From Minisyncoccia bacterium (lineage in GTDB: Bacteria; Patescibacteriota; Minisyncoccia; Moranbacterales; GCA-2747515): a DNA stretch of 64,000 nt. Shown one piece after another: positions 2,405-51,664 of this stretch (the first letter of the stretch is position 1; each line of letters opens with the position of its first letter). Under the pieces are notes generated by a model. That model had not been told where the DNA came from. It was given only the letters and a program-made list of their open reading frames with translations, and did not search any database. Position numbers and translations under genes: made by a program. The stretch is taken from positions 321,899 to 385,898 of the forward strand of contig JBGSQF010000013.1 in assembly GCA_041738235.1 (NCBI GenBank), given 5' to 3'.

Positions 2405-2479
2405 GCCGCGTTCGTCTAGCCCGGTCAGGACGCCAGGTTCTCATCCTGGAAATCATGGGTTCGAATCCCATACGCGGTA
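2405..2479 (+). tRNA. tRNA-Glu (anticodon CUC)
   Basis: Cloverleaf read by eye: acceptor GCCGCGU/ACGCGGU (one G-U pair), D-arm GUCU/GGAC, anticodon stem CCAGG/CCUGG with loop UUCUCAU, T-arm AUGGG-UUCGAAU-CCCAU, discriminator A. CCA not encoded. Strongly resembles bacterial tRNA-Glu. Confidence 0.7.
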
Positions 2480-2491
2480 CAAATAGCAACC

Positions 2492-38749: not shown

Positions 38750-39183
38750 GGGGTTGTTTAGATTCGACAGGTTGTTATTTGACATAAGTAAGCAAGCCGG
38801 TTCACGCGCGGTAACACCGAAACCTTCTCCGCGCACTCGATAAGTGCAAACTTCATCACAAAAGCCAAAGACGCTATTGCGCGAGCATTTAGCACCTCTT
38901 TCGCTACCGCCCTGGCTTAATTGCCGAGGCCATCGAATTTCGTGACTCCTTATAACGAATGTTCGGTGTCATATGTATAAGGATAGTCCTCTTCCCCCTT
39001 CTCGAAGGAAGAAGGACGAAACCTCCGAGACCGCCTTAGATGTACTTTGTTTGTTTCTGGGCATCTTCGGTTGGTTCAGGTGAAGGGAAGTAATGCGCCT
39101 TTTATCTGTCAAACAAACTCTGCTTGAAGAAAGCTTTGTCATATCATCTCTGGACATGGGTGCAATTCCCATCAACTCCACCA
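38750..39183 (+). ncRNA. ssrA: tmRNA (ssrA), ~434 nt
   Basis: 5' GGGGTTGTTTAGATTCGACAGG matches the tmRNA consensus GGGGCUGAUUCUGGAUUCGACGGG. 3' GGACATGGGTGCAATTCCCATCAACTCCACCA matches the T-arm plus acceptor and encoded CCA. Acceptor pairs GGGGUUG/CAACUCC. In-frame tag ORF ends ...FATALA-TAA (stop 38918-38920). Lies just downstream of smpB. Confidence 0.8.
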
Positions 39184-41665: not shown

Positions 41666-41692
41666 GCTAATGAAAACCACTCACTGAGTGGC
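41666..41692 (-). terminator. probable terminator of pyrB
   Basis: Hairpin CCACTC-ACT-GAGTGG overlapping the pyrB stop, followed on the minus strand by TTTTCATT. Confidence 0.35.
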
Positions 41693-42643
41693 TGTTGATA
41701 ATACCCTTTTCCTCCGACCTTTGTCGGAAATTTCCAAAATCATTTTGAGAAGCACCATCCGGACATAAAGCCCATTCTCTACTTGTCGAAAATACCCCGC
41801 TCGAAGATCACTATCCACTTCCGGATCGATCTCACCCACACGAGGCAGTGGATGCAAAACAACCGATCGTTTCTTCATTTTTCTCATCCAGCTTCTGTCC
41901 AGAACGTACTTCCCAGCGACTTTCTCGTAAACATCCGCTCTGTCCCCAAAACGTTCCTTCTGGATACGCGTCTGATATACTACATCCACCTTGGAAAGCA
42001 CACCTAACACATCTTCTCGTTCCTCAAAGTCAACTTGTTTTTTCCGAAGATACGTAAGAATATCTTTTCGCATCGCCACTTCCTTCGGTGCCACAAAGTA
42101 GATCTTCTTTACCTTGAATTTCGTTAAAAGATATGTCAGTGAATGCACCGTACGTCCATACAATAGATCCCCCACAAAGACAATGGAAATGCCGTCAATT
42201 TTTCCTATCTCTCGTTGTATCGTAAAAAGATCAAGAAGTGCTTGTGTAGGATGCTGCCCCGCTCCGTCCCCTGCATTGATAATAGGAACTGAACTTGCTT
42301 GGGCCGCTCGATCCGCCGCTCCTGTGTCAAAATGTCGAAGTACAATAGCATCCGCATATTTCCCTACAACACGCATTGTGTCTTCCAACGTTTCTCCCTT
42401 GGCTGCCGAAGAGAATTCTCGAGCATTTTCCGTCGTGATCACCGATGCCCCCAACTGAAGCGCTGCGGATTCGAACGAAAGACGCGTACGTGTGGAAGGT
42501 TCGTAAAAAAGCGTGGCAACGATCTTTCCTCGGAGCGTTTCTCCGTACTCGCTCCGATCCATAGACTGCAGATCTTCTGCTTCCAAAAATATCCTCTCCA
42601 TTGTCCCCCTATCAAATTGTTGTGCCCGTATAACATGCTTCAT
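41681..42643 (-). CDS. pyrB: aspartate carbamoyltransferase catalytic subunit
   Basis: STRTR carbamoyl-phosphate motif (YEPSTRTRLSFE), HPTQ and HPLPR motifs. ATG at 42643 (MKHVIRAQQF) chosen. Confidence 0.8.
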   Translation of the reverse strand: MKHVIRAQQFDRGTMERIFLEAEDLQSMDRSEYGETLRGKIVATLFYEPSTRTRLSFESAALQLGASVITTENAREFSSAAKGETLEDTMRVVGKYADAIVLRHFDTGAADRAAQASSVPIINAGDGAGQHPTQALLDLFTIQREIGKIDGISIVFVGDLLYGRTVHSLTYLLTKFKVKKIYFVAPKEVAMRKDILTYLRKKQVDFEEREDVLGVLSKVDVVYQTRIQKERFGDRADVYEKVAGKYVLDRSWMRKMKKRSVVLHPLPRVGEIDPEVDSDLRAGYFRQVENGLYVRMVLLKMILEISDKGRRKRVLSTATQ

Positions 42644-42803
42644 ATATTTGAAAGTATTTTTGGACCAGAAAAAAACCGCCACAGGGGCGGTCTTATAAGA
42701 TCGTTTCAAATTTATTTTTGGTTGTTGCGGTAATTTCTTTCATATTTTCCCTTATTGTACTCTCCTACTTTTAGATGTCAAACAGGAGTTATCCACACTC
42801 GAT

Positions 42804-44309: not shown

Positions 44310-44855
44310 TCAGACTATCCCCCGAATCACCTCATCCACCTTTGTCTGCAATTCGTCTCTGCCTCGTTCATTTATCACTACAAAATCTGCCATAGCAATA
44401 GGGCCCCCTTGGCTCAAATTGACGATCTGCGCATAATCACGCGACCGAGCCTCTTCCAGCGTAAGAGGTCGATCCGGACGATGCAAAAGACGCGCGTACC
44501 GAGTCTTTGGGGAACTGTGGACAGCAATAGTGGTCATGCTCTCACCAAAACGGTCTTTGAGTACCAAAAACTCTTCCCAGCTATAAAGACTCTCCACCAA
44601 CACCACATCTTCCCCGGAGAGCATTTCTAATTTCTCAATTACCTTGCGGGCATAATAATCCTGTCCATGAAGGGCACGGAGGTCTTCTCTCACCAGTCGC
44701 TCATTGGCTTGTATTGGTTCAAGTCCACGAAGCTTCATTTCATCAAAGGTTACCTCCCCAAAATACACCTTTTTCCATTGGTGTTTTTGCATTAAATACT
44801 CTATAACTTCCGTTTTTCCAGATCCCGGCATCCCAAGAAGTGCAATCACTTTCAT
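44310..44855 (-). CDS. P-loop nucleotide kinase (dephospho-CoA/cytidylate kinase-like; possible (d)NMP kinase)
   Basis: Walker A LLGMPGSGKTE at the N-terminus, ~180 aa, kinase-sized. Substrate unknown. Confidence 0.5.
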   Translation of the reverse strand: MKVIALLGMPGSGKTEVIEYLMQKHQWKKVYFGEVTFDEMKLRGLEPIQANERLVREDLRALHGQDYYARKVIEKLEMLSGEDVVLVESLYSWEEFLVLKDRFGESMTTIAVHSSPKTRYARLLHRPDRPLTLEEARSRDYAQIVNLSQGGPIAMADFVVINERGRDELQTKVDEVIRGIV

Positions 44856-44899
44856 AGCGTCATATAAATTTTTACAGATTCGTTATCCCTGGTTGGTCA

Positions 44900-45385
44900 T
44901 TACCGCTCCAGTACCACAAACCGATACTGAAAATTCTCATCTTGACTCGGTCGGTCACTTATAGTTTTCCCGAAACTTCCCTCATATTCAGGAAAAAAAA
45001 CATCGGCATCAGGAAAACTGGCATCGATCAACGTCAAATATAATCTATCAGATTTTGGAAGAAAAAGCGAGTACACCATCGCCCCACCAATGACAAAAGC
45101 CTCCCCATCCTTCTCATACTGCTCAGCCAATAGAAGGGCCTCCTTCAGGCTGTACGCCACGATCACTCCCTCGAAAGCAAAATTTTTATCTTGGGTAAGA
45201 ACAATATTTACCCTTTTTGGAAGCGGTCGACCAATCGATTCAAACGTCCTTTGTCCCATGATCACTACATGCCCACGCGTAGTATCACGAAAATATTGCA
45301 TATCTTCAGGAATGTTCCACAGTAGAGCATTATTTTTCCCTAATTCTCGATTTTTTCCAACAGCCGCGACCATAGAAAGGATCAT
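44900..45385 (-). CDS. folA: dihydrofolate reductase
   Basis: MILSMVAAVGKNRELGKNNALLW...VIMGQRTFESIGRPLPKR.NIVLT. ATG at 45385 gives a ~161-aa DHFR. Confidence 0.8.
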   Translation of the reverse strand: MILSMVAAVGKNRELGKNNALLWNIPEDMQYFRDTTRGHVVIMGQRTFESIGRPLPKRVNIVLTQDKNFAFEGVIVAYSLKEALLLAEQYEKDGEAFVIGGAMVYSLFLPKSDRLYLTLIDASFPDADVFFPEYEGSFGKTISDRPSQDENFQYRFVVLER

Positions 45386-45395
45386 AAATAGACAG

Positions 45396-46040
45396 TTAGG
45401 GTTTAAAAATAGATGAATATATTTCCTCGGAAATTTCCTCAACAGGTCGTAAAACTCCCCTCCGCACACATTGAATCGTAACCCATCCATACCTTTTTGC
45501 CAACCATCGAGCACACCGAGATGATCGATCCTGGTACACCCTGTTTTTCTCTGCCATATCCCGATCTTTTTCTTGGATCATATCACGCGAAACAAGAACA
45601 GGAACATGCAAGAATACCGTCTTGTTTGGTTTTGGCAGTCCAAGAACGCCATACTCTAGACCTTCGATCCATTGTAAAAATTCTTTTCTTTGTGAATTAT
45701 TCAGGATCTTTCCCCCTTGATGGATCTGGTTAGAGCTCACATACCGGTCTAGAACGACTATACACCCTTCCTTGAGCCACCGCTCAATCTTCTGCTTCGA
45801 TTCAAAACGATCCACAGCATACAGCACTGAAGCGATACGCGCATCCAACTCCATAAAACCTCCATGCAAACCTCGTAAACACTCCCCGATCAACCCGCCA
45901 CAAATATTCTTTTCATACTGGGGAAAATCAAGCGTCCGCACCTTGTGTCCCATTTGCCTCAACCGTTTTACCAACGATCTCGCCTGTGTCGCTTTCCCCG
46001 ACCCGTCTATTCCATCAATAACGATAAGTTTGCCTTTCAT
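45396..46040 (-). CDS. tmk: thymidylate kinase
   Basis: LIVIDGIDGSGKATQ P-loop, DRY-like motif, lid region. Confidence 0.85.
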   Translation of the reverse strand: MKGKLIVIDGIDGSGKATQARSLVKRLRQMGHKVRTLDFPQYEKNICGGLIGECLRGLHGGFMELDARIASVLYAVDRFESKQKIERWLKEGCIVVLDRYVSSNQIHQGGKILNNSQRKEFLQWIEGLEYGVLGLPKPNKTVFLHVPVLVSRDMIQEKDRDMAEKNRVYQDRSSRCARWLAKRYGWVTIQCVRRGVLRPVEEISEEIYSSIFKP

Positions 46041-46801
46041 ACAAAGTCAATATCCGCAATACACTGATAATGATCCGCCTCAAGTTTCCGAATCTCATAC
46101 CTACTCACTTTCCAGTGTTTTGATAGTAGAATGTGATCCTGCTGACCTTTTCCTGGAGCTGTTTCTGTGTCGGTAAACACTTCAAAGAAGTTTCCTACAG
46201 AAAAAACTCTCGGAAGCATTTCTGCTAGATACGAGTAATTGAAATCCCCCACCAATACTGTCGGAACCTTTTTATATTGCAACACGAAATTTTCAATTGT
46301 GTCACGTACATTTTGAAACTCCCCCTCCATAGCATTCCTTCCAAGATAGTGATACGCAACTAAATGCGTATTGAGCAACATCACTTCCTGACCATCCACA
46401 TCCAAACAAGAACACGCTATGCCCACATCCAACGATCTCCAAACATCTCCATTTTCTCGAACCTTTTGAAGGTTTGGATTTGGCAATTCAAAGAAAAAAC
46501 TTTCTTTGATCGGGTATCGAGAAAAGTTCGCCAGAGATAACCAACTTTCTTCTTTAATATGCGACTCCCCATACGGATAGTTCTCACTTCGATTATAGCC
46601 CACCTTCGAGACCATTTCTGAAAAGGTCATCGTCTTTCCAGCCAAAGCATGATGCGTTTCTTGAAGTCCAACTATATCAGCATTGATGTCCAAAATATGC
46701 CTCAAAAAATACTCTTGATCCTCCTTCTCATGCTGGTATCCATCTTGCAGAGTACCCAAAAATCGGTGTTCCCCACCAACATTCCATGACAAAATTCTCA
46801 T
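46037..46801 (-). CDS. endonuclease/exonuclease/phosphatase (EEP) family protein
   Basis: MRILSWNVGG N-terminus, conserved Asp/His positions and a C-terminal SDH-like motif of the EEP fold. Confidence 0.65.
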   Translation of the reverse strand: MRILSWNVGGEHRFLGTLQDGYQHEKEDQEYFLRHILDINADIVGLQETHHALAGKTMTFSEMVSKVGYNRSENYPYGESHIKEESWLSLANFSRYPIKESFFFELPNPNLQKVRENGDVWRSLDVGIACSCLDVDGQEVMLLNTHLVAYHYLGRNAMEGEFQNVRDTIENFVLQYKKVPTVLVGDFNYSYLAEMLPRVFSVGNFFEVFTDTETAPGKGQQDHILLSKHWKVSRYEIRKLEADHYQCIADIDFV

Positions 46802-47253
46802 AAAGTTCCCTTAATGCCCTCAATAAGTAAACTCTGCGCATCCCGTACCGCGTTTTTTACATTAGGCAAAGTTACACTGAGATGGTTGAGTGCCTGCATA
46901 GAAACCCATTGTGGCTCTGTTTCTTTCGAAGACACCAATTCTCCAACATACTTCGTGCACACGTATATATCCACGGAAAACCTTTTCACAATACCGTCCT
47001 TTCTTTGAATGTCCGCACAATATTGTTTTACAAAGCTCAGCTCCCTCATATTCACTTCCAGACCGGTTTCTTCTTTAAGTTCTCGTGCTGCCGCATCAAT
47101 GCTCGCCTCTCCTTTCTGGATCCTCCCAGCTGGCAAACCATAAACATCCGTCAAATGTGAGGCCCCTTCAAGGTGCTTCACAAGTAGCACCTGTCCCCCG
47201 TCATTAAATACTACCACACCCGCCGTCGGAACAATTTGTGGATCTTGCGCCAT
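46798..47253 (-). CDS. Nudix hydrolase
   Basis: Canonical Nudix box GLPAGRIQKGEASIDAAARELKEETGL. Confidence 0.75.
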   Translation of the reverse strand: MAQDPQIVPTAGVVVFNDGGQVLLVKHLEGASHLTDVYGLPAGRIQKGEASIDAAARELKEETGLEVNMRELSFVKQYCADIQRKDGIVKRFSVDIYVCTKYVGELVSSKETEPQWVSMQALNHLSVTLPNVKNAVRDAQSLLIEGIKGTL

Positions 47254-47297
47254 ATTTCAACAATTTCTTAACAAATTCTTTGCCCCTGAAAAATGAA

Positions 47298-48290
47298 TTA
47301 TTTCTTCTCCATATACTTTCGCCAATTTTTTCGAAAATCATCTGTGTAAACCCCGCCCGTTGTAGACATAGTGGCACGAATCGAGGGGTGTGTTTTATAT
47401 CCATCAAGATGCGCATGCTCGGGAAGAAAATCGTCGATATCTTTTACGACATCATCTATGGTCAATGTTGGGAATTTGAATGGTTTTCGGGTAAGCTGTT
47501 CCTTTACCTGCTCAAAATGATCCCCATAGATATGCGCATCCCCAAATGTATGGATAAATTCCCCAGGTTCATTTCCTGTCGCACGAGCTAGAATATATGC
47601 AAGAAGAGCATAACTTGCGATGTTGAATGGTACACCCAAAAACATATCAGCACTACGCTGATAGAGCTGAAGCGAAAGCTTCCCATTTTTGACATTGACC
47701 TGATACATATTATGGCAAATGGGAAATCGGCACGCTTCTTTGGGAAGTGCCATACCATAGAGGTATTCCGGGTTCCAAGAATTGACCAATGCGTTGTGGC
47801 AATCAGGGTCACGCTTTACCTCCTCTACTATCCATCGAACCTGATCCACTGTCCGCCCATTCCTGGCTGGCCACCTTCGCCAAAGCTCTCCATAGATCTT
47901 CGGGAGTTCCCCCCACCTCGAAGCAAATCGTTTATCGGCTTTGATCTTTTGGATAAATTCCTTTTTGGTCAACTTGGACAGCGATCTCCTCTTGGACTGC
48001 TTTTCCAAATAGATCTTGTAGGGGTAATCATTCCAGATCGGCACTTTATTCTCAATAAGGTATTTAATGTTACTTTGTCCCGACAAAAACCAATACAACT
48101 CATGCAAAACCCCTTTCCAATACACTTCTTTGGTGGTCAGAAGTGGAAAACCCTTGGAAAGATCAAATCGGATCTGTCGCCCAAACACACTATACGTCAC
48201 CGCGCCCGTTCCCTTATCATCTTGCCGAACCCCATTCTTGAGGATATCCTCCAACAGGTCAAGATACTGATATTCTGGATGTTTTGCCAT
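47298..48290 (-). CDS. thyA: thymidylate synthase (ThyA, long form with insert)
   Basis: N-terminus YLDLLEDIL..G...DKGTG.VTYSVFGRQIRFDLSKGFPLLTTKEV.WKGV..ELYWFLSG, catalytic Cys in FPICH, C-terminal ...DAHIYGDHFEQVKEQL. 330 aa, like the L. casei-type enzyme with a ~50-aa insert. Confidence 0.85.
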   Translation of the reverse strand: MAKHPEYQYLDLLEDILKNGVRQDDKGTGAVTYSVFGRQIRFDLSKGFPLLTTKEVYWKGVLHELYWFLSGQSNIKYLIENKVPIWNDYPYKIYLEKQSKRRSLSKLTKKEFIQKIKADKRFASRWGELPKIYGELWRRWPARNGRTVDQVRWIVEEVKRDPDCHNALVNSWNPEYLYGMALPKEACRFPICHNMYQVNVKNGKLSLQLYQRSADMFLGVPFNIASYALLAYILARATGNEPGEFIHTFGDAHIYGDHFEQVKEQLTRKPFKFPTLTIDDVVKDIDDFLPEHAHLDGYKTHPSIRATMSTTGGVYTDDFRKNWRKYMEKK

Positions 48291-48296
48291 ATGTTT

Positions 48297-48494
48297 TTAT
48301 ACATTATCTTTTTTATTCAAAATAGCCACGCCAATACACACTACTAGATATACTCCCAGAACGAGAATACTGATGTTCTTCACAAATGAAAATGAGATTG
48401 AATACCGAACAGCCGCCAACAGATCAAAGAAAGGCAAAGAGACAATAATAAGTGTTGCGATCACTTTCTTCTTTGTAGGGAGAAAAAAATTCAT
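48297..48494 (-). CDS. small two-TM membrane protein (hypothetical)
   Basis: 65-aa ORF, hydrophobic. Confidence 0.3.
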   Translation of the reverse strand: MNFFLPTKKKVIATLIIVSLPFFDLLAAVRYSISFSFVKNISILVLGVYLVVCIGVAILNKKDNV

Positions 48495-48511
48495 GCATCT
48501 CTCGTTACCCC

Positions 48512-49171
48512 TTAGTGAGATGCTTTATACTCCTCAAAGTCTTTGGCCATGTTTTCAAAAAGTCCCTCCGCCATCTCACGACTCACTTCAAATCGTAATT
48601 TTTCTTTCTTGTCCAACTTCCTTTGTATAGAACTCTCCAATTTTTCTCGATGTGCCCACTCGATAAATAACATATATAATCTCTTATCGGAGGGAAGCGC
48701 CAAAGCATCAGCATCTTTAATAATCTTCATCTCATCAGTATCACTTGAGTAGCTGATAATCCCCCTTATCTTTGCAAGGCGCCCCTTTTCAAGTCCTAGG
48801 CCATCAAGAAATTCCTCAGATACAAGCACGTTAAACGACTCATGTGCTCGGTGAAGCGTTTCGGCATCCGCTTTATGTGTTTTACCAATATCGTGCAGAA
48901 GCGCCCCCACAGAAACGACCAAAGAATCACATGGAACACTTTCGGCAATTTTCCGAGCGATTTCCTCGACTCGACAGCTGTGATCGTACATCACGTGCCA
49001 ATCATTGAAACTATAATGAGGATTTTCCTGAAAAGCCTTCTTCACAAAATCCCGTGTCTTTTGAATTACAGCTAATTCATCCATATTCATTGCTTGCTTC
49101 CATTCTAAGAAATTAGTTGTGCTGAGCGCCGCCACCCCCGAAAAGGTCGTCGAGGTTACGAACTCAAACAC
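48512..49171 (-). CDS. HD-domain phosphohydrolase
   Basis: H...HD motif (GALLHDIGKTHK) and a downstream conserved Asp. Confidence 0.7.
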   Translation of the reverse strand: MFEFVTSTTFSGVAALSTTNFLEWKQAMNMDELAVIQKTRDFVKKAFQENPHYSFNDWHVMYDHSCRVEEIARKIAESVPCDSLVVSVGALLHDIGKTHKADAETLHRAHESFNVLVSEEFLDGLGLEKGRLAKIRGIISYSSDTDEMKIIKDADALALPSDKRLYMLFIEWAHREKLESSIQRKLDKKEKLRFEVSREMAEGLFENMAKDFEEYKASH

Positions 49172-49191
49172 TTATGATCAGTGTCCTAAGT

Positions 49192-49749
49192 CTAACCTTT
49201 TTTTGGTTCCGGTGTAAAGTTTTTTTTCCAATTATCTCCATTAAAACGCCCTGTTTCTGTATAATCCCGAGAAACAGGAGAGGATAACTTGCTAAACGTG
49301 AGTTGCGCAATGGCCATTCCTGGTCGCAAAATGATCGGAACCACATTAAAATTCGCCAATTCCAGAGTAATGTGCAAAAAATGCCCGGGGTTAATAATTC
49401 CGGCGGTATTGTGCACTACGAGCCCTATTCTTGCCAAAGAACTCTTCCCCGATATCTGAATGAGATACTCGTATGATCCCACAAAATCCTTGAGCGTTCC
49501 GAGAACCGTCGCTCGTGGGTGCAATACGAACTCTTCTCCATCAGGGATTTCCACTTCGCTCGTCTTGGGGAATATTTTATGAGCCGGATCGATCGCCTGC
49601 GTCTCGTGCGCGCTCGTGAGAATAAACCTATTTCCCAACAACACATCGTAACTTGCCGGCTGAAGTCGATTTTCATCAAATTCCTTGATAGTAATCACCC
49701 CATCTTCCACCGCCTTTTTTATGTCTCCATCGGATAAGAACATACTCAC
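49192..49749 (-). CDS. dcd: dCTP deaminase (dUTPase superfamily)
   Basis: MFLSDGDIKKAVEDGVITIKEFDENRLQPASYDVLLG resembles the Dcd N-terminus. Trimeric dUTPase-fold motifs. Confidence 0.75.
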   Translation of the reverse strand: MSMFLSDGDIKKAVEDGVITIKEFDENRLQPASYDVLLGNRFILTSAHETQAIDPAHKIFPKTSEVEIPDGEEFVLHPRATVLGTLKDFVGSYEYLIQISGKSSLARIGLVVHNTAGIINPGHFLHITLELANFNVVPIILRPGMAIAQLTFSKLSSPVSRDYTETGRFNGDNWKKNFTPEPKKG

Positions 49750-49789
49750 TACAAATTACAAATAAATGCCCATACAAATATACAAATAC

Positions 49790-50230
49790 CTAATCACTGA
49801 CTACCCGTTCTTTTAAAACTTTTTCCAGTTGAACAAGTAGATCTTTTTCATCTTCCGCCTCGATCATACTACTGACTGCAGGATTTCCTCTTGTCATTCT
49901 TCCCACCAATTCTCCCTTAAACCAAAACAAAATAATATCTGAGGTAGTAATTCTTGCAATTTCTAACTCGGCACCCACGCCCAGTGAAGGCATACCTACA
50001 TAAGCAATAAGCATATCCGATGATGCCACCTCTCTATGGTCCGTCTTCCACACTTCGCGGGCGCTTACTTGTGGATCTTTTATCGGATCCGTTCCACCAA
50101 GATGAGGGATATAAACGGAATCAAAATACTTGGAAGCGACCTTTCCAACATCCTCATATAAGCGCTTCATCTTCTCTATTTCCTTGACTCCCGTCAGCGG
50201 ACCAGAGATATATACTTTTTTCATATCCAT
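49790..50230 (-). CDS. nucleoside 2-deoxyribosyltransferase-like protein
   Basis: KVYISGPLTG...YIPH...D.......D..M...ADMLIAYVG...G...ELEIA pattern of the Nuc_deoxyrib_tr family. Confidence 0.6.
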   Translation of the reverse strand: MDMKKVYISGPLTGVKEIEKMKRLYEDVGKVASKYFDSVYIPHLGGTDPIKDPQVSAREVWKTDHREVASSDMLIAYVGMPSLGVGAELEIARITTSDIILFWFKGELVGRMTRGNPAVSSMIEAEDEKDLLVQLEKVLKERVVSD

Positions 50231-50315
50231 TCTTTTACCGTTTTATACCAAATCAATCTCGAAAAATTTTTAATTCCCCGAATTAAAACACTTTTTACTT
50301 TAAACTTTTCACTTT

Positions 50316-50999
50316 TTACTGAATTGTAAACGTCTTCTCCGTTCCGTAATACTCCTGCCAATGTTGATTGTAATGGGCAAACATTCGCTCGAGGCGATCT
50401 TGAGGAAGTTCTTCTACGCCCAATGTTGCCATAAGCGCACGAATCTCCTTTTTTACTTCGTCGGCGGAAATATTCTCCGACACCACTCGTTCAAATTCTG
50501 CCAAATAACCATACCCGGCGTTGCGATCGATACAGATATGCGTCCCATCACTCATTTCATATTCTTCACGATCACGTGACCACTTGGCTTGATACTCACA
50601 CCCACTGGCAATCACCAATGCGTCAACCTCATCGATGCTCATTGCCACCGTTGATTCAAACTCAATGCGTGCTGTGCCATTGGAGCTTGTCGTATCGTCG
50701 ATAGAGGCTTTGATCACAAATAATACCACATCATCAGTCTTGCGTGTGCGAATGGAAATATTTTTTCCTTCGTGAAGTATACGCAAAAAACGTTCAGTCC
50801 CATCAGGTGAGATCGTTTGTAGAAAGTTTTTTTCCAACAGCTTCATATCACCTCCCACGAAGTAATGATTGAGCTGTTTGTTCGTATCAATAATGCGACA
50901 ACTTGGGTCAAGCTCCAACATTCTTTTTTTGAGCTCTTGCACCTTCTCAATACTCCCCAACAATGACTTGATCTCCACTTCTACCAAATGATTTTCCAT
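50316..50999 (-). CDS. CYTH-domain protein (triphosphate tunnel metalloenzyme family)
   Basis: N-terminal EVEIK motif and the alternating charged beta-strand pattern of CYTH/CyaB-like enzymes. Confidence 0.5.
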   Translation of the reverse strand: MENHLVEVEIKSLLGSIEKVQELKKRMLELDPSCRIIDTNKQLNHYFVGGDMKLLEKNFLQTISPDGTERFLRILHEGKNISIRTRKTDDVVLFVIKASIDDTTSSNGTARIEFESTVAMSIDEVDALVIASGCEYQAKWSRDREEYEMSDGTHICIDRNAGYGYLAEFERVVSENISADEVKKEIRALMATLGVEELPQDRLERMFAHYNQHWQEYYGTEKTFTIQ

Positions 51000-51100
51000 A
51001 AAAGCTCCAATAATTTAATTGTATTAATTTTTCTATTATACCCCTATTCTGCCTATCCGTAAAATATCAGGAAAGTCCGTACAAAAAGAAAAAACGGACA

Positions 51101-51664
51101 TTATCGATCCGTTTTTATCTTCTTTATGATCTCCTCAGTTTTCTGCATAAGCTCTTCGAGCGTTCCTTCATTGTAGAGTGTAAAATCGGCATGACTGCCT
51201 ATCTCCGGGATACTTTTCTCTGTCTCCAAAGAAGCCTCCATCGTAACAAACTTCTCAAAAGGAATATTATCATCCGACTTCTCTCCACGACCTACTGTTC
51301 GTTTCCATCGCAATTCTTGACTTGCCGTAACATAGATCAGTATACTATTCTCAAACTTCCGCAGATATTCATAGTCCTCCATGTACCGAAGTCCATTGAT
51401 CGAGGCGATATCCTCAATAAACGCGATCTTACGATCCAATGCTCGGCAAAAGATATCCTTACCAAAATGTTTTTTGAATTCCACAGCGATCCATGCCTGG
51501 TCTTCTCGGGACGGTCGCTCAAAGAACATTCTGAGGATATCTTTGATAGGATCGGAAAAACGGAGCAGCACCGCTCCATATACATCACGAAGATGGTATG
51601 CCACCGTATCTTTCCCAGAACCACTTTCTCCAACCAAACCAATAACGAGGGGATGTTTTTGCAT
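51101..51664 (-). CDS. deoxynucleoside monophosphate kinase, phage T4 gp1-like
   Basis: LVIGLVGESGSGKDTVAYHL...RFSDPIKDILRMFF parallels T4 dNMP kinase IFLSGVKRSGKDTTADFI...QLAGPIKDALAYAW. Confidence 0.65.
   Translation of the reverse strand: MQKHPLVIGLVGESGSGKDTVAYHLRDVYGAVLLRFSDPIKDILRMFFERPSREDQAWIAVEFKKHFGKDIFCRALDRKIAFIEDIASINGLRYMEDYEYLRKFENSILIYVTASQELRWKRTVGRGEKSDDNIPFEKFVTMEASLETEKSIPEIGSHADFTLYNEGTLEELMQKTEEIIKKIKTDR

What the first reader, a model, noticed from the sequence alone, without database searches (positions are those of the whole stretch)
44310..51664. Contiguous 7-kb deoxynucleotide metabolism supercluster including a phage T4-type dNMP kinase
Twelve co-directional genes sit in this block.

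- Canonical thymidylate genes: folA, tmk and thyA (long form).
- Salvage and sanitising genes: dcd, nucleoside 2-deoxyribosyltransferase-like, two Nudix hydrolases, an HD phosphohydrolase and an EEP nuclease.
- A CYTH triphosphatase-like protein.
- Two extra P-loop kinases. One (51101-51664) resembles T4 gp1 dNMP kinase. In phages that enzyme phosphorylates dGMP, dTMP and 5-hydroxymethyl-dCMP.

The assembly fits a scavenging lifestyle. It would also be the right toolkit for making or handling a non-canonical deoxynucleotide. The T4-like kinase plus the deoxyribosyltransferase are the unusual elements.
Basis: partly seen in the sequence, partly recalled or inferred. Interest (0 to 1): 0.55.

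Follow-up and report, generated by a model that had tools for sequence, protein, structure and literature searches.

The report
Patescibacterial thymidylate-synthesis and nucleotide-salvage gene cluster
This is a real but essentially housekeeping cluster that makes ordinary thymidine nucleotides in an ultra-small (Patescibacteria/CPR) bacterium; what stands out is not a phage T4-type kinase or an exotic DNA base but a lineage-wide, oddly rebuilt enzyme core (CYTH enzyme, dCTP deaminase, variant thymidylate synthase).

Summary
The block is real: 11 nucleotide-metabolism genes plus a 65-aa membrane ORF sit back to back on the minus strand between rplA and gatB. Only one Nudix is present, not two.

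The host is a Patescibacteria (CPR) bacterium. In 84 related loci the 7-kb block is not conserved as a unit. The conserved part is CYTH-dcd-thyA (51/84) plus folA, usually beside nusG-rplK. The other genes form a variable shell.

The ThyA homolog belongs to the thymidylate synthase clade. It is 42.5% identical to L. casei TS against 22-27% to the T4 and SPO1 hydroxymethylases. It keeps C146, E58, H147, N177, W80 and Y94. It is linked to folA, and once fused to a dCMP deaminase. So canonical dTMP synthesis is the best reading and the non-canonical-base idea is weak.

The "T4-type" kinase is a UPF0200/SSO1041-family kinase and a paralog of the other kinase. The "deoxyribosyltransferase" is closest to DNPH1-type nucleotide N-glycosidases.

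Three undescribed oddities:
- ThyA lacks three of the four phosphate-binding arginines. It also has an invariant insert before the catalytic Cys and a C-terminal extension.
- Dcd carries Asn at the dUTPase-type catalytic Asp.
- The CYTH enzyme is mutually exclusive with a Dcd/Dut-like paralog, so it may act as a dUTP hydrolase.

The parts
51101..51664 (-). kinB: 187-aa P-loop nucleotide kinase of the UPF0200/SSO1041 family.
   Evidence: Pfam DNMK scores 31.1 bits, but only over residues 8-70. phrog_139 'dNMP kinase' gives 1.9e-23. The family profile A3 hits 3LW7/3H0K at E 2.6e-30 over the full length, against 1DEK at 4.9e-7 over the P-loop only. The AF2 model has pLDDT 95.5, and the Foldseek top hit is 3LW7 with TM 0.74/0.80. 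It lies next to CYTH and/or tmk in 8 related loci.
51035..51116 (-). Terminator-like hairpin at the end of kinB, followed by a promoter-like site (TTTACG-17-TATAAT) upstream of the CYTH gene. This may be a transcription-unit boundary.
   Evidence: These are consensus matches only, and their counts in the region are not above the shuffled expectation.
50316..50999 (-). CYTH / triphosphate tunnel metalloenzyme (TTM), 227 aa. It is the conserved partner of dcd-thyA.
   Evidence: The ExExK motif (E7, E9, K11) is invariant in 44 homologs. So are R84/R86, K97, R111/E113/E115, K139/R142/R144 and E168/E170. The profile hits PH1819, Saci_0718 TTM and class IV adenylate cyclase. The AF2 model has pLDDT 92.6, and the Foldseek top hits are 7NSD, 2EEN and 3N0Z. 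It is present in 51/84 loci, directly upstream of dcd.
49790..50230 (-). DNPH1/NDT-superfamily protein, 146 aa. It is probably a (deoxy)nucleotide N-glycosidase and is a lineage-specific accessory gene.
   Evidence: As a single sequence it gets only weak hits: Pfam E 0.01-0.04 and phrog_355 at 1.6e-5. The family is small, with 53 homologs. Profile A2 hits DNPH1/5-hmdUMP N-hydrolase at 1e-9, CMP N-glycosidase at 1e-7 and NDT at 3.5e-6. The PSLGVGxE motif is invariant. The gene is absent from all 83 other loci.
49192..49749 (-). dcd: dCTP deaminase of the 'N-type'. Asn replaces the motif-III Asp.
   Evidence: TIGR02274 scores 137.9 against a cut-off of 92.8. The best PDB match is the M. tuberculosis dCTP deaminase:dUTPase 2QXX at 3e-31. 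IINPGH aligns with IDPGF in Dcd and with GLID (D90) in E. coli Dut. The deaminase Glu is kept (TLELAN).
48512..49171 (-). HD/HDIG phosphohydrolase. The likely true start is at 49090, giving 192 aa. Accessory gene.
   Evidence: Pfam HD 1.4e-11 and TIGR00277 HDIG 6e-11. The gene call on the identical contig L001 is 192 aa. It was found in the neighbourhood only on contigs of this same organism.
48297..48494 (-). 65-aa hydrophobic ORF with two predicted membrane helices and no known family.
   Evidence: It is called as a gene on the identical contigs L001/L002. It has no homolog in the other loci.
47298..48290 (-). thyA: thymidylate synthase of a Patescibacteria-wide variant subfamily.
   Evidence: The catalytic set is conserved. 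The changes are R21K, R126H (120/120 homologs), R127N (118/120) and W83Y. There is a 7-aa insert with an invariant CRFP just before the catalytic Cys, and a C-terminal extension of about 22 aa.
46798..47253 (-). Nudix hydrolase, MutT-like, 151 aa. Accessory gene.
   Evidence: Pfam NUDIX 8e-18. TIGR00586 mutt gives 3.7e-12, below its cut-off. A Nudix gene lies next to thyA in 5 loci.
46037..46801 (-). Endonuclease/exonuclease/phosphatase (EEP) family protein, 254 aa. Accessory gene. It overlaps each neighbour by 4 nt.
   Evidence: Pfam Exo_endo_phos 6e-10. There are no homologs in the other loci.
45396..46040 (-). tmk: dTMP kinase.
   Evidence: Pfam Thymidylate_kin 4.6e-21. NF005923 gives 1.5e-39, below its curated cut-off. 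tmk lies near thyA in 12/83 loci.
44900..45385 (-). folA: dihydrofolate reductase. The ORF runs to 45514, but the DHFR domain starts at the internal Met at 45385.
   Evidence: Pfam DHFR_1 5.4e-49, residues 46-203 of the long ORF. folA is present near thyA in 71/83 loci.
44310..44855 (-). kinA: 181-aa UPF0200/SSO1041-family P-loop kinase, a paralog of kinB.
   Evidence: 3LW7 matches at E 6.6e-18 over the full length. It is 24% identical to kinB, E 4e-10. An ortholog occupies the same position (after folA, before gatB) in relative L087.

Best explanation
This is the chromosomal thymidylate-synthesis and deoxynucleotide-salvage locus of a Patescibacteria (CPR) bacterium, and it makes ordinary dTTP.

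Proposed pathway:
1. Dcd deaminates dCTP to dUTP.
2. dUTP is hydrolysed to dUMP. I infer that the adjacent CYTH/TTM enzyme does this, because this Dcd has lost the Asp that dUTPase-type enzymes use to activate water.
3. The variant ThyA methylates dUMP with methylene-tetrahydrofolate, giving dTMP and dihydrofolate.
4. FolA regenerates tetrahydrofolate.
5. Tmk makes dTDP.

Around this conserved core, this lineage has collected accessory genes:
- Two UPF0200-type nucleotide kinases, presumed (d)NMP kinases.
- A DNPH1-like nucleotide N-glycosidase.
- A MutT-like Nudix.
- An HD phosphohydrolase.
- An EEP nuclease/phosphatase.
These would scavenge and clean up deoxynucleotides taken from a host.

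Shown: the gene identities, the conserved synteny, and the residue patterns.
Inferred: every enzymatic step, and especially the CYTH step. My confidence in the CYTH step alone is about 0.3.
For: Gene identities.

Organism: every close homolog of ThyA and CYTH comes from Patescibacteria MAGs. The locus lies between rplA-rplK-nusG-secE and gatB-pyrB. The same frame is seen in relative L087 (ThyA 84% identical).

ThyA is a thymidylate synthase:
- It scores above the NCBIfam equivalog cut-offs.
- It is 42.5% identical to L. casei TS over its full length, against 27% and 22% partial identity to the SPO1 and T4 hydroxymethylases.
- C146, E58, H147, R166, S167, D169, N177, H207, Y209, Y94, W80 and K48 are conserved in about all 120 homologs.
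- It keeps the positions that both hydroxymethylases have changed.
- folA lies beside it in 71/83 loci, glyA in L086 and tmk in 12 loci.
- Homolog P0093 is a dCMP-deaminase::ThyA fusion, which implies dUMP is the substrate.

Core synteny: CYTH-dcd-thyA, tightly packed, occurs in 51/84 loci.

CYTH has the complete TTM catalytic signature and fold.

Dcd has Asn at the position that aligns with the dUTPase motif-III Asp. The Asn-type Dcd goes with an adjacent CYTH in 43 of 46 cases.

CYTH and a Dcd/Dut-superfamily paralog (or a canonical dut) never co-occur. The counts are 51 CYTH only, 29 other only, 0 both. In L034 and L058 the paralog sits exactly in the CYTH slot.

There is no defence-system or phage signature, and composition is uniform.
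Against: - No enzyme was assayed.
- ThyA lacks R21, R126 and R127 and the canonical C-terminal carboxylate. From my recall of the TS mutagenesis literature, these features matter for dUMP binding and for active-site closure in studied TS enzymes. Its kinetics, or even its exact substrate, could therefore differ.
- The Dcd's best structural relative is a bifunctional enzyme. It could still release dUMP itself, which would leave CYTH without the proposed job.
- The paralog that replaces CYTH lacks both the Asp and the deaminase Glu. It is not an obvious dUTPase, which weakens the 'same slot, same function' argument.
- The CYTH-versus-paralog split largely follows lineage (Parcubacteria-type against Microgenomates-type loci), so the counts are not independent events.
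- Four loci combine CYTH with an Asp-type Dcd.
- I could not check whole genomes for dut.
- The accessory genes are not conserved, and their roles are guesses from family names.
Confidence: 0.75

Rival explanations
1. Non-canonical base toolkit. The ThyA homolog would be a hydroxymethylase or other pyrimidine C5-modifying enzyme. The kinases and the N-glycosidase would then process or police a modified deoxynucleotide such as 5-hydroxymethyl-dUMP.
For: - The ThyA deviates from canonical TS in ways that echo the real hydroxymethylases. It has K at position 21 as in T4 gp42, has lost R127 as in SPO1 gp29 (Q), has a longer loop before the catalytic Cys, and has a non-canonical extended C-terminus.
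- The neighbouring 146-aa protein is most similar to DNPH1. The PDB entries that match are titled 5-hydroxymethyl-dUMP N-hydrolase.
- kinB matches a phage dNMP-kinase PHROG.
Against: - By score and identity it is in the TS clade.
- It keeps H147, K48, PFNIASYALL and GDAH-Y, which both hydroxymethylases have lost. It also keeps W80, which SPO1 gp29 has lost.
- It is tightly linked to folA. A hydroxymethylase does not oxidise folate and does not need DHFR; this point rests on established enzymology.
- One homolog is fused to a dCMP deaminase.
- The variant is near-universal in Patescibacteria, where it would have to be the only thymidylate source.
- The DNPH1-like gene and most accessory genes are absent from the other 83 loci.
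- No glycosyl-, amino-acyl- or pyrophosphoryl-transfer genes are present.
Confidence: 0.05
2. The core is an ordinary dcd-thyA-folA operon. Dcd is bifunctional and delivers dUMP directly. CYTH does something unrelated to dUTP: inorganic triphosphate or polyphosphate hydrolysis, cyclic-nucleotide synthesis, or another NTP phosphohydrolase reaction.
For: - The Dcd's closest solved relative is the bifunctional M. tuberculosis enzyme.
- From my knowledge of the family, characterised TTM/CYTH enzymes are mostly tripolyphosphatases, thiamine triphosphatases, RNA triphosphatases or class IV cyclases. The closest folds here are of that kind.
- Four loci pair CYTH with an Asp-type Dcd.
- The paralog that replaces CYTH lacks the dUTPase Asp.
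Against: - CYTH is packed immediately upstream of dcd-thyA, often overlapping it, across lineages whose CYTH proteins share only about 50% identity.
- It is perfectly exclusive with a Dcd/Dut-superfamily gene or with dut in the same slot.
- The motif-III Asp is replaced by Asn in the Dcds that travel with CYTH.
Confidence: 0.4
3. The block is a phage-derived or mobile auxiliary module, or a nucleotide-depleting anti-phage island, rather than host housekeeping.
For: - kinB matches phrog_139.
- kinA and kinB resemble the kinase-like domain of defence-type dCTP deaminases (PADLOC PDLC02373).
- The Nudix matches a PADLOC candidate family.
- The accessory content differs between close relatives.
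Against: - The block is embedded between ribosomal-protein genes and gatB, in the same frame as in a relative.
- GC content and skew do not break across it.
- There are no integrase, repeats or tRNA at its borders.
- The PADLOC hits are domain-level only, with no deaminase or effector domain.
- Only 20 weak phage hits were found for kinB, at 25-28% identity.
Confidence: 0.03

Closest known systems
Bacterial thyA-folA / dcd-dut thymidylate pathway (E. coli type), with long-form ThyA as in Lactobacillus casei and Enterococcus faecalis
   Same: The same chemistry is expected: dCTP to dUTP to dUMP to dTMP, with DHFR recycling. ThyA is 42.5% identical to L. casei TS and carries the long-form insert and all catalytic residues. 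thyA-folA linkage is classic.
   Different: - ThyA has K/H/N in place of R21/R126/R127 and Y in place of W83.
- It has an invariant 7-aa insert before the catalytic Cys and a C-terminal extension of about 22 aa.
- Dcd has Asn instead of the motif-III Asp.
- No dut lies in the neighbourhood. A CYTH/TTM gene occupies the operon instead.
Triphosphate tunnel metalloenzymes / CYTH (Saci_0718 TTM, PH1819, Yersinia class IV adenylate cyclase, thiamine triphosphatase)
   Same: It has the ExExK motif, the basic and acidic tunnel residues, and the eight-strand tunnel fold (Foldseek E 5e-11 to 1e-8).
   Different: It is about 45 aa longer, with a conserved C-terminal helical extension (LPQDRLERMFAHYNxHWxEYYGT). 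It is only 16-20% identical to any solved TTM. It is genomically locked to dcd-thyA. The papers I could search do not report that context for any CYTH protein.
UPF0200 / SSO1041 'adenylate-kinase-related' proteins (PDB 3LW7, 3H0K)
   Same: kinA and kinB both align over their full length, and the kinB model superposes with TM 0.74-0.80. 3LW7 was crystallised with AMP, which suggests an NMP-kinase-like site.
   Different: They are bacterial (CPR), present as two paralogs, and placed in a deoxynucleotide operon. The family has no assigned substrate.
Phage T4 gp1 dNMP kinase (Pfam DNMK, PDB 1DEK)
   Same: It has the SGKD-type P-loop followed by a PIKD motif, and a similar C-terminal N-[DE]-G-[ST]-LEEL end. 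Pfam DNMK scores just above its gathering score, and phrog_139 gives 1.9e-23.
   Different: Only about 60 N-terminal residues match the DNMK model. The roughly 85-residue gp1 middle segment is missing. 1DEK is not among the top 50 fold matches. No T4-like phage homolog was found at E <= 1e-3.
DNPH1 (Rcl) 2'-deoxynucleoside 5'-phosphate N-hydrolase, and the MilB/BlsM CMP N-glycosidases, within the nucleoside 2-deoxyribosyltransferase superfamily
   Same: It has the PSLGVGxE motif, with the nucleophile Glu and a Ser that in DNPH1 binds phosphate (residue roles recalled, not tested here). It has an N-terminal Y-x-x-G. The family profile hits DNPH1 at 1e-9 and MilB-type enzymes at 1e-7.
   Different: It is below the Pfam cut-off as a single sequence, belongs to a small family (53 proteins) and has unknown substrate preference. 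True NDT transferases score lower, at 3.5e-6.
Phage pyrimidine hydroxymethylases (T4 gp42, SPO1 gp29)
   Same: Same fold family (PF00303). Shared features are K at position 21 (T4), loss of R127 (SPO1), a longer pre-Cys loop and a non-TS C-terminus.
   Different: Identity is 22-27% and only partial. Asn177, H147, K48 and the folate-side motifs are TS-like, not hydroxymethylase-like.

Membership tests
Thymidylate synthase ThyA (EC 2.1.1.45) | Matches the family HMMs above curated cut-offs | tested here: met
   PF00303 scores 318 bits. NF002496 scores 357.8 against 325. TIGR03284 scores 353.8 against 108.
Thymidylate synthase ThyA (EC 2.1.1.45) | Catalytic Cys146 plus E58, H147, Y94, D169, N177, H207, Y209 and W80 (E. 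coli numbering) | tested here: met
   All are present in the window protein and in 119-120 of 120 homologs.
Thymidylate synthase ThyA (EC 2.1.1.45) | Four-arginine dUMP phosphate site (R21, R166, and R126'/R127' from the partner subunit) | tested here: not met
   Only R166 is kept. The others are K21, H126 (120/120 homologs) and N127 (118/120).
Thymidylate synthase ThyA (EC 2.1.1.45) | Protein ends at the conserved ...KAPVA(V/I) C-terminus, whose carboxylate closes the active site with R21 and W83 (role recalled from the literature) | tested here: not met
   About 22 extra residues follow this point. W83 is replaced by Y and R21 by K.
Thymidylate synthase ThyA (EC 2.1.1.45) | Functional coupling to dihydrofolate reductase | tested here: met
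   folA lies within 10 kb in 71/83 loci, usually adjacent.
Thymidylate synthase ThyA (EC 2.1.1.45) | Converts dUMP and CH2-THF to dTMP and DHF | not testable with these tools
   Needs an enzyme assay or complementation of a thyA deletion.
dCMP/dUMP hydroxymethylase (T4 gp42, SPO1 gp29) | Closer in sequence to hydroxymethylases than to TS. Asp at position 177 for dCMP enzymes. TS-specific H147 and folate-side motifs lost. | tested here: not met
   Identity is 22-27% and partial, against 42.5% over the full length to TS. N177, H147, K48, PFNIASYALL and GDAH-Y are all retained.
T4 gp1-type dNMP kinase (Pfam DNMK PF21448) | Family HMM above the gathering score | tested here: inconclusive
   It scores 31.1 bits against 27.1, but only residues 8-70 match positions 3-64 of a 232-position model. 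36 of 64 family members hit DNMK, against 60 for AAA_18.
T4 gp1-type dNMP kinase (Pfam DNMK PF21448) | Full-length similarity in sequence or fold to gp1 (1DEK) | tested here: not met
   1DEK matches the P-loop only (E 0.02 for the single sequence, 4.9e-7 for the profile) and is absent from the top 50 Foldseek hits.
UPF0200 / SSO1041 kinase family | Full-length sequence and fold match to 3LW7/3H0K | tested here: met
   kinA matches at 6.6e-18. The kinB profile matches at 2.6e-30. The kinB model has TM 0.74/0.80.
CYTH / triphosphate tunnel metalloenzyme | N-terminal ExExK plus conserved basic and acidic tunnel residues | tested here: met
   E7, E9, K11, R84, R86, K97, R111, E113, E115, K139, R142, R144, E168 and E170 are invariant in 44 sequences.
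CYTH / triphosphate tunnel metalloenzyme | Tunnel fold, and family HMM match | tested here: met
   Foldseek gives E 5e-11 to TTM and class IV cyclases on a model with pLDDT 92.6. The window protein alone is below the Pfam cut-off (16.2 against 23.2), but most homologs carry PF01928 and the profile hits PH1819 at 1.3e-9.
dCTP deaminase (Dcd), trimeric dUTPase superfamily | Family HMM above cut-off and catalytic Glu of the deaminase | tested here: met
   TIGR02274 scores 137.9 against 92.8. The Glu in HITLELAN aligns with the Glu of M. tuberculosis HITLELSN.
Bifunctional dCTP deaminase:dUTPase | Motif-III Asp (I-D-P-G), equivalent to the water-activating Asp of dUTPases | tested here: not met
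   The window Dcd has Asn (IINPGH), as do 46 of the 57 Dcds in related loci. 43 of those 46 lie in loci that also carry CYTH. Whether Asn abolishes dUTP hydrolysis is inferred, not measured.
Nucleoside 2-deoxyribosyltransferase / DNPH1 superfamily | Catalytic Glu nucleophile in a conserved G-x-E motif, and family-level sequence match | tested here: met
   S82, G84, G86 and E88 of PSLGVGAE are invariant. The profile hits DNPH1 at 1e-9 and NDT at 3.5e-6. The single sequence is below the PF05014 cut-off (14.4 against 28.8).
Nucleoside 2-deoxyribosyltransferase / DNPH1 superfamily | Transferase (nucleoside) versus hydrolase (5'-nucleotide) activity | not testable with these tools
   The ranking favours the nucleotide-hydrolase branch, but the substrate must be measured.

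The most novel reading that the evidence does not exclude
Patescibacteria would make thymidylate with a rebuilt enzyme set.
- A CYTH/triphosphate-tunnel enzyme would serve as a non-homologous dUTP hydrolase, a new class of dUTPase. It would work downstream of a Dcd that has lost the dUTPase-type Asp.
- It would feed a thymidylate synthase whose nucleotide-phosphate site and C-terminal lid have been re-engineered. Three of the four arginines are gone, with an invariant Cys-Arg insert and a C-terminal extension in their place.

A more extreme version is that the variant ThyA has a different substrate or product, such as dUDP or 5-hmdUMP. The evidence does not strictly exclude this, but I put it at 5% or less.
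Probability: 0.25. Interest if true: 0.65.

Novelty: new variant of a known kind. Interest (0 to 1): 0.42.

Why it matters
As flagged (a T4-type kinase and a possible exotic base), the finding is mostly ordinary. It is a thymidylate and salvage operon in a host-dependent bacterium.

It matters for a different reason. It exposes a phylum-wide version of one of the best-studied enzymes in biochemistry, thymidylate synthase, that lacks arginines and a C-terminus treated as near-universal. It also exposes a conserved CYTH partner whose job is unknown.

If CYTH proves to be the dUTP hydrolase, that would be a new, unrelated solution to an essential genome-protection step. It would also give a first physiological role to a bacterial CYTH family.

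The variant ThyA could show how dUMP binding and lid closure can be achieved differently. It would also be a lineage-specific target or marker for Patescibacteria.

Tried and rejected
- **Hydroxymethylase reading.** I fetched the real SPO1 gp29 and T4 gp42 sequences and aligned them. I rejected this reading on clade membership, TS-specific residues and folA linkage, but recorded the partial resemblances.
- **T4 gp1 membership.** I tested it with Pfam, PDB sequence search, a 64-sequence profile, an AF2 model with Foldseek, and tblastn against 50,697 phage records. Only the P-loop/PIKD region supports it. SPO1 gp22.1, annotated 'possible HMdUMP kinase', is unrelated to kinB.
- **Defence or phage island.** PADLOC and PHROGs gave only domain-level or generic matches.
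- **A second Nudix.** None was found.
- **dut in the window and loci.** tblastn with E. coli and B. subtilis Dut found one canonical dut (L015) and led to the 179-aa paralog. Whole-genome absence of dut could not be tested, because only about 20 kb per genome is accessible.
- **Literature.** Searches for CYTH with thyA/dcd/dUTPase, for ThyA variants in CPR, and for UPF0200 found nothing relevant.
- **Promoter and terminator scan.** It gave counts at the shuffled expectation.
- **ThyA structure model.** I did not build one, because the tool returns no coordinates. The question of whether the insert Arg reaches the phosphate could not have been answered that way.

Full report
**What is in the sequence**

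Twelve consecutive minus-strand ORFs fill 44310-51664. Gaps between them range from a 4-nt overlap to about 100 nt. In transcription order they are:
- kinB (51664-51101)
- a CYTH protein (50999-50316)
- a 146-aa NDT/DNPH1-like protein (50230-49790)
- dcd (49749-49192)
- an HD phosphohydrolase (49171 or 49090 to 48512)
- a 65-aa hydrophobic ORF (48494-48297)
- thyA (48290-47298)
- a Nudix (47253-46798)
- an EEP protein (46801-46037)
- tmk (46040-45396)
- folA (45385-44900)
- kinA (44855-44310)

Pfam and NCBIfam confirm folA, tmk, thyA, dcd, Nudix, HD, EEP and two P-loop kinases. There is one Nudix, not two.

The block is flanked by rplA-rplK-nusG-secE on one side and gatB-pyrB on the other. Nearly all large ORFs from about 41.7 kb to 64 kb lie on the minus strand, and GC skew is negative throughout. 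Co-directionality therefore carries no information. The functional clustering does.

**Which organism**

Homologs of ThyA and CYTH come almost only from Patescibacteria/CPR MAGs: Moraniibacteriota, Paceibacterota, Nomurabacteria, Kaiserbacteria, Doudnabacteria, Microgenomates and others. Proteins 100% identical to the window's CYTH and NDT-like proteins sit on an NCBI contig of 407,907 bp. The closest named genome is a Moraniibacteriota chromosome, CP065011.1, with ThyA 81% identical.

**Is the block conserved as a unit?**

No. I fetched 80 loci from species-representative genomes and several metagenome contigs, then located homologs of each window protein by tblastn.
- thyA is accompanied by folA in 71/83 loci, by dcd in 58, and by CYTH in 48. 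CYTH rises to 51/84 after adding close relatives and removing four short contigs of the window's own organism.
- nusG-rplK lies nearby in about 25 loci.
- tmk appears in 12, kinB in 7-8 and Nudix in 5.
- HD, EEP, the NDT-like gene, kinA and the small ORF appear essentially only in this organism.

The typical Parcubacteria-type arrangement is nusG-rplK-...-folA(opposite strand)-CYTH-dcd-thyA, with the last three genes abutting or overlapping.

A relative with 84% identical ThyA (L087) has the same frame as the window: secE-nusG-rplK-rplA-kinB-CYTH-x-dcd-x-thyA-folA-kinA-x-gatB. In the variable slots it carries a SAM methyltransferase, a small CBU_0592-family protein and a DUF6886 protein instead. 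Another relative at 87% (L086) has HAD-HAD-Nudix-CYTH-dcd-x-thyA-glyA.

So there is a conserved core with a fluid accessory shell.

The protein is a thymidylate synthase by every family measure.
- PF00303 scores 318 bits, and it scores above two NCBIfam equivalog cut-offs.
- It is 42.5% identical to L. casei TS over its full length, and it has the long-form insert.
- In an alignment with E. coli and L. casei TS and 120 homologs, C146, E58, H147, R166, S167, D169, N177, H207, Y209, Y94, W80 and K48 are conserved.

I fetched the two classical hydroxymethylases from the phage records (SPO1 gp29, T4 gp42) and aligned them.
- Both have lost H147, K48, the PFNIASYALL segment and GD(A/T)H. SPO1 has also lost W80, and T4 has Asp at position 177.
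- The window protein keeps all of these.
- Identity to them is 27% and 22% over partial alignments.

Three further points support dUMP to dTMP with dihydrofolate as product, not hydroxymethylation:
- folA is linked in 71/83 loci.
- glyA lies alongside in L086.
- One homolog (P0093) is a single polypeptide joining a dCMP deaminase to this ThyA variant.

**The ThyA is not fully canonical**

- R21 is Lys.
- R126 is His in 120/120 homologs.
- R127 is Asn in 118/120.
- W83 is Tyr in 119/120.
- A 7-residue insert, with a nearly invariant A-C-R-F-P, precedes the catalytic Cys.
- The chain continues about 22 residues past the canonical ...KAPVA(V/I) end, through a conserved T-G-G and a Trp/Lys-rich tail.

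From my recall of the TS literature, R21, R126' and R127' bind the dUMP phosphate together with R166. R21 and W83 hold the C-terminal carboxylate when the active site closes, and removing the last residue abolishes dTMP formation.

All the deviations therefore fall in two functional units, the phosphate pocket and the lid. They are fixed across the phylum, and ThyA identity between lineages is an unusually high 60-87%.

Some of these traits echo the hydroxymethylases: K21 in T4, Q127 in SPO1, a longer pre-Cys loop and a different C-terminus. This is why I keep a small probability on a non-standard reaction. I found no description of this variant in the searchable literature.

**The 'T4-type' kinase**

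Evidence for the T4 resemblance:
- The Pfam DNMK hit (31.1 bits against 27.1) covers only residues 8-70.
- phrog_139 'dNMP kinase' matches over the full length at 1.9e-23.

Evidence against a specific T4 relationship:
- The single sequence matches S. solfataricus SSO1041/UPF0200 over its full length (4e-7), while 1DEK matches only at the P-loop (0.02).
- A 64-sequence profile gives 2.6e-30 for SSO1041 against 4.9e-7 (P-loop only) for 1DEK.
- The AF2 model (pLDDT 95.5) superposes best on 3LW7 (TM 0.74/0.80). Next come dephospho-CoA, UMP/CMP and adenylate kinases. 1DEK is not in the top 50.
- Only 20 phage records hold a weak homolog (25-28% identical, mostly Bacillus phages). None is T4-like.

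kinA is a clearer UPF0200 member (6.6e-18) and a paralog of kinB. Both resemble the kinase-like domain of defence-type dCTP deaminases at domain level only. UPF0200 has no assigned substrate. 3LW7 is titled as an AMP complex. '(d)NMP kinase' is therefore a reasonable but untested label.

**The 'deoxyribosyltransferase'**

As a single sequence it is below Pfam cut-offs. Its family is small, with 53 proteins, some carrying PF05014. The family profile ranks as follows:
- DNPH1, titled in the matching PDB entries as 2'-deoxynucleoside 5'-phosphate N-hydrolase or 5-hydroxymethyl-dUMP N-hydrolase: 1e-9.
- CMP N-glycosidases of the MilB type: 1e-7.
- True transferases: 3.5e-6.

The PSLGVGxE motif is invariant. 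A nucleotide N-glycosidase role, either sanitation or release of deoxyribose-5-phosphate, is the best guess. The gene is absent from every other locus examined, so it is not part of the conserved system.

**The conserved core and a proposed mechanism**

The CYTH protein carries the full triphosphate-tunnel signature, invariant in 44 homologs: ExExK, paired Arg/Lys and paired Glu. It folds confidently (pLDDT 92.6) into a TTM. Saci_0718, PH1819 and class IV adenylate cyclase are the nearest structures.

The Dcd is closest to the bifunctional M. tuberculosis enzyme. However, it has Asn where Dcd and Dut enzymes have the motif-III Asp (IINPGH against IDPGF or GLID). In dUTPases that Asp activates the attacking water; this is established knowledge that I did not re-verify here. 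Among 57 Dcds in the loci:
- 46 are Asn-type, and 43 of these lie in loci that also carry CYTH.
- 11 are Asp-type, and 7 of these lack CYTH.

Loci without CYTH, mostly Microgenomates-type, instead carry a 179-aa Dcd/Dut-superfamily paralog directly upstream of thyA. This holds for 28 loci. One further locus has a canonical dut there. In L034 and L058 the paralog occupies exactly the CYTH slot between folA and dcd. The tally is:
- CYTH only: 51
- paralog or dut only: 29
- both: 0
- neither: 4, of which three are at contig ends

I therefore propose that CYTH hydrolyses dUTP to dUMP for ThyA.

Caveats:
- The split tracks lineage, so the counts are not independent.
- Four loci pair CYTH with an Asp-type Dcd.
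- The paralog itself lacks both the Asp and the deaminase Glu, so its own activity is unclear.
- Known TTMs mostly act on other triphosphates.
- I could not survey whole genomes for dut.
- No paper in the library links CYTH to dcd, thyA or dUTP.

My confidence in this step is about 0.3.

**Other rivals**

A phage, mobile or defence origin is unlikely. The block is embedded in a conserved chromosomal frame. Composition does not break across it. There are no integrase, repeats or tRNA at the borders. PADLOC and PHROG matches are only generic.

**Verdict**

The 'scavenging' reading is right. The 'non-canonical nucleotide' and 'T4-type kinase' readings are not supported.

What is really there is the Patescibacteria thymidylate module in an unusually expanded form. 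Its interest lies in three lineage-wide, apparently undescribed features:
- an arginine-poor ThyA with an extended C-terminus
- an Asn-type Dcd
- a dedicated CYTH partner

Noticed in passing
L055:4359-4898, L006:7483-8022, L037:3658-4197, L019:9432-9977, and about 24 more loci; L034:8920-9387 and L058:8903-9370: A 179-aa Dcd/Dut-superfamily paralog (PF22769, 5e-27) sits directly upstream of the variant thyA in loci that lack CYTH. It has Pro or Ala in place of the motif-III Asp and Gly in place of the deaminase Glu (GNVPPGY...TFGLKN). It therefore fits neither a standard dCTP deaminase nor a standard dUTPase.
   Followed up: partly
P0093 (537 aa; homolog): This is a single polypeptide joining an N-terminal zinc dCMP deaminase (HAE...PCxxC) to the variant ThyA (AHN, RFPICH). 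It is a Rosetta-stone hint that the variant uses dUMP.
   Followed up: partly
L003:9589-9996, L086:9581-9991, L088:9612-10019: A conserved ORF of about 135 aa, with no Pfam match even at E <= 1, lies between dcd and thyA in the closest relatives. In the window this slot holds the HD gene and the 65-aa ORF.
   Followed up: partly
L087:9171-9860: In a close relative (ThyA 84% identical), a class I SAM-dependent methyltransferase is inserted between dcd and thyA.
   Followed up: no
L088:11433-19379: In another relative, thyA is followed by Bro-N proteins, an rve integrase, an N6/N4 DNA methylase, RhuM and a ResIII helicase. This looks like a mobile or defence island inserted right next to the thymidylate core.
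   Followed up: no
L071 (JAHLMT010000005.1, labelled Aenigmatarchaeota archaeon), and many loci labelled 'uncultured Gammaproteobacteria' or 'Saccharibacteria': The Patescibacteria-type thyA, with the same neighbours, occurs on contigs whose record titles name other groups, including a DPANN archaeon. This could be mislabelled bins or horizontal transfer.
   Followed up: no
window 41681-42709 (-): An aspartate carbamoyltransferase (pyrB) lies two genes beyond the cluster. A de novo pyrimidine step is worth noting in an organism expected to rely on salvage.
   Followed up: no
window 38750-39183 (+) and 2405-2480 (+): tmRNA (Rfam 98.5 bits; tag ANFITKAKDAIARAFSTSFATALA) and tRNA-Glu(CTC) are the only structured RNAs detected in the 64 kb.
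   Followed up: yes
window 1-64000: GC skew is negative in all but one 2-kb window. From about 41.7 kb onward almost all large ORFs are on the minus strand. This is consistent with a single replichore with strong gene-strand bias.
   Followed up: no
window 50316-50999 (residues about 190-227 of the CYTH protein): The CYTH family carries a highly conserved C-terminal helical extension (LPQDRLERMFAHYNxHWxEYYGTxKTF). It lies beyond the part of the protein that aligned to solved TTM/CYTH chains in the PDB sequence searches. It might contribute to substrate (base) recognition or to partner binding.
   Followed up: no
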